From: Schizochytrium sp. TIO01
Taxonomy: Eukaryota; Protista; Bigyra: Labyrinthulomycetes
Assembly (NCBI GenBank): GCA_004764695.1
Contig: SMSO01000034.1
Coordinates: 4,340,001 to 4,404,000, forward strand
Direction: 5' to 3'
DNA length: 64,000 bases
The first letter of the stretch is position 1. Each line of letters begins with the position of its first letter. Below, piece after piece: positions 25,898 to 26,300 of the stretch. The translations under genes were made by a program, and so were the position numbers. A model generated the notes under the pieces. The model was not told the origin of the DNA. It made no database searches and saw only the letters and a list, made by a program, of their open reading frames with translations.

Positions 25898-26300
25898 TTA
25901 AATCATGTCCTTGGATAGATATCGCAAAAGGATGCCTCTGGTGGAGTGGAGTGGATACCACGATCAGCTATGCTTTTGCATTTGAGACATTTGAAAACCC
26001 TGGATGTTCTGAGCTTGTCCTGGATGGTCCTACAGTCATTGCATGTTTGTGAAGTGTAGTCCGCTCGGCAAATAAGCAGTTTACACCACTGGCAGGAAGA
26101 CAAGCTCGGCTTTGTGAATGAGCGCTTGGCAGAAGCTAACGAACGACATATCGTTCGAGCTGTCTTGATTTTGATTCGCCTCTTTGATTTGATGAGGTTT
26201 CGAATTGAGGCAAAGGGATAACACGGTAGTGTTCACAGAGCCACAAACCCGGCCTGTAGAAGTTGACAACTCTACCGATGTCTTTGTAGACGGTGGGCGT
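25898..26300 (-). pseudogene. Degraded Fanzor2/TnpB-like RNA-guided nuclease remnant (RuvC-II, Zn ribbon, RuvC-III)
   Basis: Fragments in order across shifting frames: WLCEHYRVIPLPQFETS, KRRIKIKTART, SFCQALIHKAE, CKLLICRADYTSQTCNDC...SRVFKCLKCKSIADRGIH, TRGILLRYLSKDMI*. Confidence 0.8.

What the first reader, a model, noticed from the sequence alone, without database searches (positions are those of the whole stretch)
25898..26300. Fossil Fanzor2 (eukaryotic TnpB) between ARL2BP and the poly-SAM gene
Stitching minus-strand frames gives ...VVNFYRPGLWLCEHYRVIPLPQFETS / KRRIKIKTART / SFCQALIHKAE / CKLLICRADYTSQTCNDCRTIQDKLRTSRVFKCLKCKSIADRGIH / TRGILLRYL. This follows the Fanzor2/IS607-TnpB C-terminal pattern (LCENYxxIxLPxFET, KTAR, YTSxTCxxC, FxCxxC, DRDxNxARNI). 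The RuvC-III Asp appears as Gly and I could not find RuvC-I, so this copy is dead. It implies the lineage has carried an RNA-guided nuclease family, and intact copies may exist elsewhere in the genome or in associated giant viruses.
Basis: partly seen in the sequence, partly recalled or inferred. Interest (0 to 1): 0.7.

Follow-up and report, generated by a model that had tools for sequence, protein, structure and literature searches.

The report
Dead IS607–Fanzor2 mini-transposon, many copies
This 0.8-kb stretch is a broken, internally deleted bacterial-type jumping gene (half a recombinase gene joined to the tail of the RNA-guided nuclease Fanzor2) that recurs at many places in the genome of a protist, likely a thraustochytrid, which suggests that such elements once moved inside a eukaryotic nucleus.

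Summary
The Fanzor2 fossil is real, but it is only the 3' part of a larger object. Minus strand ~26608-25790 holds an IS607-type element: left end, the 5' half of the serine-recombinase gene tnpA (50.6 bits; 0 of 100 shuffles reach it), a deletion of about 1.05 kb, the last ~110 codons of Fanzor2 and a decayed right-end RNA region. This copy is dead: RuvC-I is deleted, RuvC-II Glu is Ala, RuvC-III Asp is Gly, and there are four frame breaks. Contigs of four public runs show dozens of 80-95% similar sequences over the element and single-copy cover outside it; all four runs carry the insertion here. Loose ends suggest that paralogues share one tnpA::Fanzor2 junction, i.e. a non-autonomous family moved in trans. 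No intact copy and no viral copy was found, but the host assembly could not be searched. It is a new member of a known kind (eukaryotic IS607/Fanzor2), unusual in copy number and host.

The parts
25790..26608 (-). Whole internally deleted IS607-type (tnpA + Fanzor2) element, about 820 bp; ends approximate
   Evidence: Summed contig depth is 15-40 times the flank in bins 25812-26619 and single-copy outside, in 4 of 4 runs laid; gene relics below
26582..26608 (-). Left end, with two AGGT(T/A)A motifs (26601, 26596) and a GG at 26608-26607 as candidate terminus
   Evidence: 7 paralogous contigs of run X14 stop aligning at 26602 with a mixed loose end, agreement 0.58; motif positions; the GG terminus is inferred
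26244..26581 (-). 5' half of IS607 tnpA (serine recombinase): helix-turn-helix relic, catalytic-motif relic (..VSS.KQKED), KDIG..VNF.RPGL; two stops and several frameshifts
   Evidence: 26478-26244 aligns to positions 35-104 of a TnpA profile at 50.6 bits; shuffles max 20.8 (0 of 100), 178 other window tiles max 31.2. 26581-26479 is assigned by eye only: 26610-26385 alone is not significant (16 of 100 shuffles)
26243..26244 (-). Deletion junction, tnpA joined in frame to Fanzor2; about 1.05 kb missing, including the tnpA 3' half, the Fanzor N-terminus and RuvC-I
   Evidence: The same two motifs lie 973-1166 nt apart (median 1054) in 13 intact relatives; many paralogous contigs stop at 26243 or 26244-26248 and one carries about 42 nt more here
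25898..26243 (-). 3' ~110 codons of Fanzor2: RuvC-II region, C4 zinc finger (4 Cys kept), RuvC-III; four frame breaks; Glu read as Ala at 26064, Asp read as Gly at 25959
   Evidence: read through with X it covers profile positions 376-488 of 499; Glu stands at that position in 238 of 240 fetched proteins with the motif; codons
25790..25897 (-). Right end and decayed guide-RNA scaffold region (TTGGGCCTTAGCCCC at 25857-25843, TGCA, ATAGGTTAAA); the 3' terminus lies near 25800-25790, or at most 25755
   Evidence: A model built from 15 relatives without the window has its best hit of the 64 kb here (18.6 bits, rough E 0.02); this copy does not fold better than shuffles (z -0.8)
24723..25280 (-). 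Host neighbour: ARL2BP (BART) gene, not part of the element
   Evidence: PF11527 E 5e-30; nearest named relative Hondaea fermentalgiana, 66%
27154..34428 (-). Host neighbour: 2424-aa ORF with many SAM domains, not part of the element
   Evidence: PF07647 E 7e-68, 13 stretches

Best explanation
This is a dead, internally deleted copy of an IS607-type transposon (tnpA plus Fanzor2) that belongs to a repeat family of dozens of similar sequences, likely a non-autonomous family that an intact partner once moved around the host's nuclear genome. Shown: the two gene halves in IS607 order, the ~1 kb deletion, loss of all three RuvC catalytic residues, many paralogues with common boundaries, and presence at this locus in 4 of 4 runs. 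Inferred: one founder lost the middle of the element but kept both ends. TnpA from an autonomous copy then excised and re-inserted it by serine recombination at a short shared core (GG in bacterial IS607), with no inverted repeats or target duplication. The founder's right end would also have made a guide RNA usable by an intact Fanzor2 in trans. This copy later lost a further ~42 nt and decayed neutrally; it now encodes nothing functional.
For: TnpA relic: (50.6 bits; 0 of 100 shuffles; 178 tiles max 31.2); the two best of 2434 window pieces against the TnpA profile are the two element pieces, in order; the two profile members tested are IS607 transposases above cut-off (2 of 90 tested). Fanzor relic; the profile of its relatives has mimivirus L79 as best PDB match (E 7e-61 against 2e-22 for IS605 TnpB). 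Repeat family: 250, 226, 230 and 257 contigs laid per run, most under 95% alike; up to 37 contigs in run X1 differ at one site. Shared junction: loose ends read by eye continue TnpA as KRQGLCSLLD (1 contig in X1 and X19) and lead into WLCEHY as IHRMLAL (3 contigs in X19); 3 contigs in X15 read through from one to the other; X15 record 19 has ~42 nt more. Neutral decay: majority letters of the paralogues at 26049 and 26000 give the conserved Lys of SKTC and SKVF, and loose ends at 25941/25950 give Asp at RuvC-III (my reading). No long terminal inverted repeat joins the ends.
Against: The shared junction rests on a handful of contigs; 207 loose-end rows and 312 piece rows were not shown. Summed contig depth is not a copy number. 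Different flanks for the paralogues rest on depth and on one loose-end row (7 contigs, agreement 0.58). No empty site and no autonomous partner were seen. The GG core and both termini are inferred; the pseudoknot partner that marks the 3' end in 15 of 15 relatives (4-7 bp) is not found near 25800 in this copy (3 bp). The tree placement is weakly supported.
Confidence: 0.75

Rival explanations
1. The copies are remnants of full-length autonomous elements that inserted first and were each deleted and degraded afterwards; there was no amplified non-autonomous founder.
For: This copy does carry its own extra deletion at the junction, and one search lists many joints of unknown content (118 not shown). 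Only a few contigs define the shared junction.
Against: The loose ends on both sides meet within about 42 nt in runs of different studies (X15, X19). No shown row runs on into RuvC-I or into the tnpA 3' half.
Confidence: 0.13
2. The locus or its sister copies are maintained as guide-RNA donors ('ghost' loci) for an intact Fanzor2 still present in the host, so the family is partly alive.
For: The right-end motifs are kept. A paralogue consensus at 25897 (9-10 contigs per run) reads as a perfect 10-bp hairpin before the TTGGG motif (my reading). Ghost loci give working guide RNAs in Spizellomyces (PMC10432273, passages).
Against: In this copy that hairpin's 5' arm is mutated, folding is no better than shuffles (z -0.8 against -1.7 to -8.9 for six relatives), and the pseudoknot partner is missing near the end. 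Copies are 5-20% diverged. No intact Fanzor over 52% identical was found.
Confidence: 0.06
3. The copies spread by segmental duplication or came with viral DNA, not by IS607 transposition in the nucleus.
For: Gilbert and Cordaux found that many eukaryotic IS607 fragments share flanks and arose by segmental duplication (PMC3673617, passages). Fanzor2 relatives are common in viral contigs.
Against: Cover falls to single copy right at both element ends in 4 of 4 runs. The neighbours are ordinary eukaryotic genes. No close viral copy was found.
Confidence: 0.04
4. The sequence is a bacterial IS607 pro-Fanzor (contamination or a direct recent transfer), not a eukaryote-type Fanzor2.
For: The Atlas lists only bacterial zinc-ribbon clusters as look-alikes of the 46-aa core. 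The closest proteins carry no organism names.
Against: Contigs bridge both junctions into eukaryotic flanks in 4 of 4 runs. The fragment scores 91-99 bits (42-48%) against unnamed metagenomic relatives and 67 bits (37%) against the best of 29 loci from named bacterial genomes. It sits in a 122-leaf group without any of the 9 genome loci kept (support 0.87).
Confidence: 0.02

Closest known systems
Eukaryotic IS607-type elements with Fanzor2 (IS607EU; ACa-1, ACa-2, ISvMimi_1; PMC3627910, PMC13565253, PMC3673617)
   Same: tnpA (serine recombinase) upstream of Fanzor2 on one strand, no terminal inverted repeats, zinc finger between RuvC-II and RuvC-III, structured right end.
   Different: About 1.05 kb deleted and both genes dead. 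Dozens of similar sequences here, against 1-7 copies for every Fanzor2 family in the 2013 table and 1-2 for the nuclear families with TnpA. Host likely a thraustochytrid, which the searched papers and supplements do not name.
Fanzor 'ghost' loci of Spizellomyces punctatus (PMC10432273)
   Same: Short non-coding derivatives that keep both ends and the guide-RNA region.
   Different: Those belong to Fanzor1, have 30-nt inverted repeats, and give working guide RNAs. This family is IS607-type, keeps gene stumps, and this copy's RNA region is decayed.
Bacterial IS607 with pro-Fanzor TnpB (cyanobacteria; bioRxiv 2023.08.09.552727) and IS607/IS1535 (PMC6188088)
   Same: Same gene order and recombinase; the source of the inferred GG-core mechanism.
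   Different: More distant in sequence (37% against 42-48%). Here the element lies among eukaryotic nuclear genes.

Membership tests
Fanzor2 protein (as a relic) | C-terminal TnpB-type C4 zinc finger followed by the RuvC-III (R)D motif | tested here: met
   PF07282 E 2.2e-5; four Cys kept; DRD is DRG in this copy and DRD/DCD in paralogue loose ends
Fanzor2 protein (as a relic) | RuvC-II Glu shifted to six residues before the zinc finger | tested here: inconclusive
   The context aligns without a gap but the residue is Ala here; Glu in 238 of 240 relatives; definition from section 21 of 10.1101/2023.08.09.552727
Fanzor2 protein (as a relic) | DPG motif at RuvC-I | not testable with these tools
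   The region is deleted in this copy; DPG is conserved in the closest full-length relatives
Fanzor2 protein (as a relic) | Groups with Fanzor2 rather than bacterial pro-Fanzor or Fanzor1 | tested here: inconclusive
   Closer to unnamed metagenomic and viral relatives than to bacterial genome loci, with weak supports and no named Fanzor1 or Fanzor2 in the tree; relatives' profile best matches mimivirus L79
Active Fanzor2 nuclease | Intact reading frame with the three catalytic residues | tested here: not met
   RuvC-I deleted, Glu to Ala, Asp to Gly, four frame breaks
IS607-type element (IS607EU) | Serine-recombinase tnpA upstream of the nuclease gene, same strand | tested here: met
   (as a truncated, frameshifted relic)
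IS607-type element (IS607EU) | No terminal inverted repeats and no target-site duplication | tested here: inconclusive
   No long inverted repeat links the ends. AGGTTA stands near both ends in direct orientation, but the same motif is internal to the right end of relatives; no empty site was seen
IS607-type element (IS607EU) | Insertion at a GG (or other dinucleotide) core | tested here: inconclusive
   GG at 26608-26607 and in the paralogue loose end (agreement 0.58); right terminus unresolved
IS607-type element (IS607EU) | Structured right-end RNA with a 3' pseudoknot | tested here: inconclusive
   Sequence motifs present (rough E 0.02); folding and pseudoknot not kept in this copy; no Rfam match
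IS607-type element (IS607EU) | Guide RNA is expressed and directs cleavage | not testable with these tools
   No run on record as RNA holds the stretch

The most novel reading that the evidence does not exclude
The host still carries an intact IS607-Fanzor2 element that mobilised a swarm of guide-RNA-bearing mini-elements. A culturable protist would then be a model for serine-recombinase transposition and Fanzor2 homing inside a eukaryotic nucleus, and the source of a new thraustochytrid Fanzor2 with its target motif readable from dozens of insertion sites.
Probability: 0.12. Interest if true: 0.72.

Novelty: new member of a known kind. Interest (0 to 1): 0.36.

Why it matters
Gilbert and Cordaux could not conclude that IS607 ever transposed within a eukaryotic genome (PMC3673617, passages), and the Fanzor2 families in the 2013 catalogue have 1-7 copies. 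A family of dozens of deleted copies with common ends is the kind of evidence that question needs, and its flanks would give the target core and the Fanzor target motif by alignment alone. The copy itself is inert, and eukaryotic IS607/Fanzor2 elements are known, so the value lies in the family and in whether a partner survives.

Tried and rejected
No host genome was held, so copies could not be extracted. The window holds no second copy. Word-based protein search with the C-terminal piece found no candidate of 192-2000 aa (weak). The piece found no relative in viral contigs (18 pattern hits, none confirmed), and a 23-nt pattern found nothing in viral or metagenome contigs. My first idea, that FKCQIRVYPDP is the Fanzor N-terminal motif and SPGG a RuvC-I relic, failed against shuffles; both are TnpA. 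The single piece has no significant PDB match, and Rfam has no relevant match. The tree used two pieces in the wrong frame and was replaced. Expression: no RNA holder listed; run X19 (RNA only by guess) holds an identical 449-nt contig at depth 6.5 and X15 is probably DNA, which is no evidence either way. AGGTTA near both ends was considered as a target duplication and set aside because relatives carry it inside the right end. The 15 right ends in the RNA model were hand-picked from motif-bearing loci (12 of 16 with both motifs, L084 and L128 dropped as near-duplicates, L062/L095/L101 dropped as poor, plus 4 of 15 with only the first motif), so one search's 15 of 15 is not an unbiased rate. 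In the tree, 217 sequences were reduced to 153 at 75% identity.

Full report
Observation. One unjoined frame (25906-26232) matches Pfam PF07282 at E 2.2e-5, 24.9 bits against a cut-off of 26.3, NCBIfam IS607_TnpB at E 0.0011, and 136 of 1.84 billion representative proteins at E<=0.001. A profile of the 58 hits of 400-750 aa finds that frame and, separately, the WLCEHY piece (E 2.2e-4) as the only two significant pieces among 2434 in the window. Read through with X at four breaks, the remnant covers positions 376-488 of the 499-position profile (this score is partly circular, since the hits were found with the fragment). The flanking genes are ARL2BP and a SAM-repeat ORF. The nearest named relative of ARL2BP is from the thraustochytrid Hondaea fermentalgiana, 66% identical, and the DNA runs that hold the stretch have 58-69 million letters of contigs; a thraustochytrid host is an inference.

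The upstream part is TnpA. The region 26610-26250 does not match RuvC-I or the N-terminus of the Fanzor profile (27 of 60 and 16 of 60 shuffles reach the scores). I took 90 ORFs with a YxRVS motif from the 157 loci fetched around Fanzor2-like genes; the two tested are IS607 transposases above the NCBIfam cut-off. Against their profile, the two best of 2434 window pieces are the two element pieces, in order, each weak alone (E 0.012 and 0.23). A frameshift-tolerant alignment covers 26478-26244, profile positions 35-104, at 50.6 bits; 0 of 100 dinucleotide shuffles (max 20.8) and 0 of 178 other window tiles (max 31.2) reach it. So 'KDIGRVVNFYRPGL' is the TnpA motif 'kdigsGlnfkRkgl', and the next codon starts the Fanzor2 piece. 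In 13 loci where both motifs could be matched they lie 973-1166 nt apart: about 1.05 kb is deleted, taking the tnpA 3' half, the Fanzor N-terminus and RuvC-I.

The copy is dead. In Fanzors the RuvC-II Glu lies six residues before the zinc finger (10.1101/2023.08.09.552727, section 21 read; PMC13565253, passages). It is Glu in 238 of 240 fetched proteins with the motif and Ala here. RuvC-III Asp is Gly, and a 5-nt tandem duplication follows it. TnpA carries two stops and frameshifts.

It is one of many. Twenty of 24 listed runs, from 12 studies, hold the stretch or a part of it. Laying 4 of them on 24600-27600 at 80% likeness placed 226-257 contigs each, most under 95% alike (X1: 11, 16, 80 and 143 at 99+, 95-99, 90-95 and under 90). 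Summed depth is about 15-40 times the flank from 25812 to 26619 and single-copy outside, apart from a doubling in the repetitive SAM gene. The tool warns that this is no copy number; up to 37 contigs of X1 differ from the window at one site, so 'dozens' is an estimate. Contigs bridge both junctions in 4 of 4 runs with about 0-2% differences, so the insertion predates the split of these strains; X1 may be the window's own source. No shown joint skips the whole element (118 not shown). Where most paralogues differ from the window, they restore conserved residues at 26049 and 26000, and loose ends at 25941 and 25950 carry Asp at RuvC-III (my reading).

The junction looks shared. On 26130-26420, many paralogous contigs stop at 26243 or 26244-26248. 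Translated by eye, the loose ends continue TnpA as KRQGLCSLLD (one contig each in X1 and X19), lead into WLCEHY as IHRMLAL (three contigs in X19), and pass from one to the other within a few codons (three contigs in X15). X15 record 19 has about 42 nt more between 26318 and 26243. I infer a family junction some 42 nt longer, and a further private deletion in this copy. No shown row runs into RuvC-I or the tnpA 3' half, but 207 loose-end and 312 piece rows were not shown, so full-length copies are not excluded.

Ends. Seven X14 contigs stop at 26602 with a mixed loose end (agreement 0.58) that suggests a terminus at a GG a few bases further out; the window has GG at 26608-26607. Downstream of the Fanzor stop, relatives share TGGG.CT..CCC, TGCA and a 3' end like GGTTTAA.TGTAGG. 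In 15 hand-picked relatives the first motif pairs with the last nine bases by 4-7 bp and covaries (sum 85; permuted partners mean 58, 0 of 2000), as expected for the Fanzor2 pseudoknot (PMC13565253, passages). A model of these 15, without the window, has its best hit of 64 kb at 25884-25701 (18.6 bits, rough E 0.02; next 7.8 bits). In this copy the region folds no better than shuffles (z -0.8; six relatives -1.7 to -8.9) and pairs by only 3 bp near 25800; a TGTAGGCC at 25758 is an alternative partner, but no paralogue aligns at 25779. The right terminus is therefore uncertain.

Placement. The X-joined fragment is 42-48% identical to unnamed metagenomic proteins and 37% to the best of 29 loci from named bacterial genomes; no fetched protein exceeds 52% over 80 columns. 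In a FastTree tree of 154 sequences it sits in a 122-leaf group free of the 9 genome loci kept (support 0.87), on a long branch with weak local supports. The relatives' profile matches mimivirus L79 far better than IS605 TnpB. The Atlas returned only bacterial zinc-ribbon clusters for the 46-aa core, which does not discriminate.

Mechanism. Shown: anatomy, deletion, loss of catalysis, repeat status, presence in four runs. From established knowledge: IS607 TnpA alone suffices for transposition, inserts at GG and leaves no duplication (PMC6188088, passages). Inferred: a deleted founder kept both ends and was amplified in trans by an autonomous partner, and its right end could have supplied guide RNA, as ghost loci do for Fanzor1 (PMC10432273, passages).

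Novelty. Eukaryotic IS607/Fanzor2 elements are known (PMC3627910, passages and supplement 1 read; PMC3673617 and PMC10530073, passages). In the 2013 table Fanzor2 families have 1-7 copies, and Gilbert and Cordaux could not conclude that IS607 transposes in eukaryotic genomes. Full-text searches for Fanzor or IS607 with thraustochytrid names gave one paper on a green alga (listing only) or none, and the supplements searched do not name these genera (two files of PMC3627910 and one of PMC10432273 were not searched; bioRxiv supplements, Repbase and most subscription papers were out of reach). An earlier, unreviewed note of this scan (e1-10595914) describes what appears to be another copy of the same family in this genome; I saw it after reaching my reading, and it is not independent evidence.

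Verdict. A real, dead member of a known kind of element, made more interesting by its copy number and host, with the intact partner neither found nor excluded. Interest 0.36.

Noticed in passing
window 26257-26295, runs X15 and X19: One or two contigs of very high depth (about 8,000-10,000 against 6-70 for the window's own contig) match only this ~35-nt part of the tnpA relic; either a chance likeness to an abundant sequence or a fragment of the element inside an abundant transcript.
   Followed up: no
window 26601-26590 (minus strand): The left end reads AG|GTTAG|GTAAGA, which resembles a spliceosomal donor site, and relatives end in TGTAG|G, which resembles an acceptor; in relatives that 3' end is explained by the pseudoknot. 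Splicing was not tested.
   Followed up: no
window 27154-34428 (minus): Single 2424-aa ORF with at least 13 SAM domains separated by Ser/Arg-rich linkers; the 3' part shows doubled cover with a second variant in the runs.
   Followed up: no
window 39793-48801 (minus): 3002-aa intronless ORF with myosin head, IQ, PH and SAM domains and a weak RanBP-type zinc finger.
   Followed up: no
L078-L157 and L001-L077 (Fanzor2-like loci): The right ends of environmental Fanzor2-like elements share a covarying pseudoknot stem and often end in TAGG-C or TAG-CG, a motif with no Rfam match in the window and worth a curated model.
   Followed up: partly
L158 and L221: Short contigs (2.0 and 0.8 kb) in bacterial MAGs encode proteins 45-47% identical to the eukaryote-like group; possibly mis-binned eukaryotic or viral contigs.
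   Followed up: no
window 17728-17936 and 57527-57810: Long tandem arrays (6-nt unit x 34; 12-nt unit x 24).
   Followed up: no
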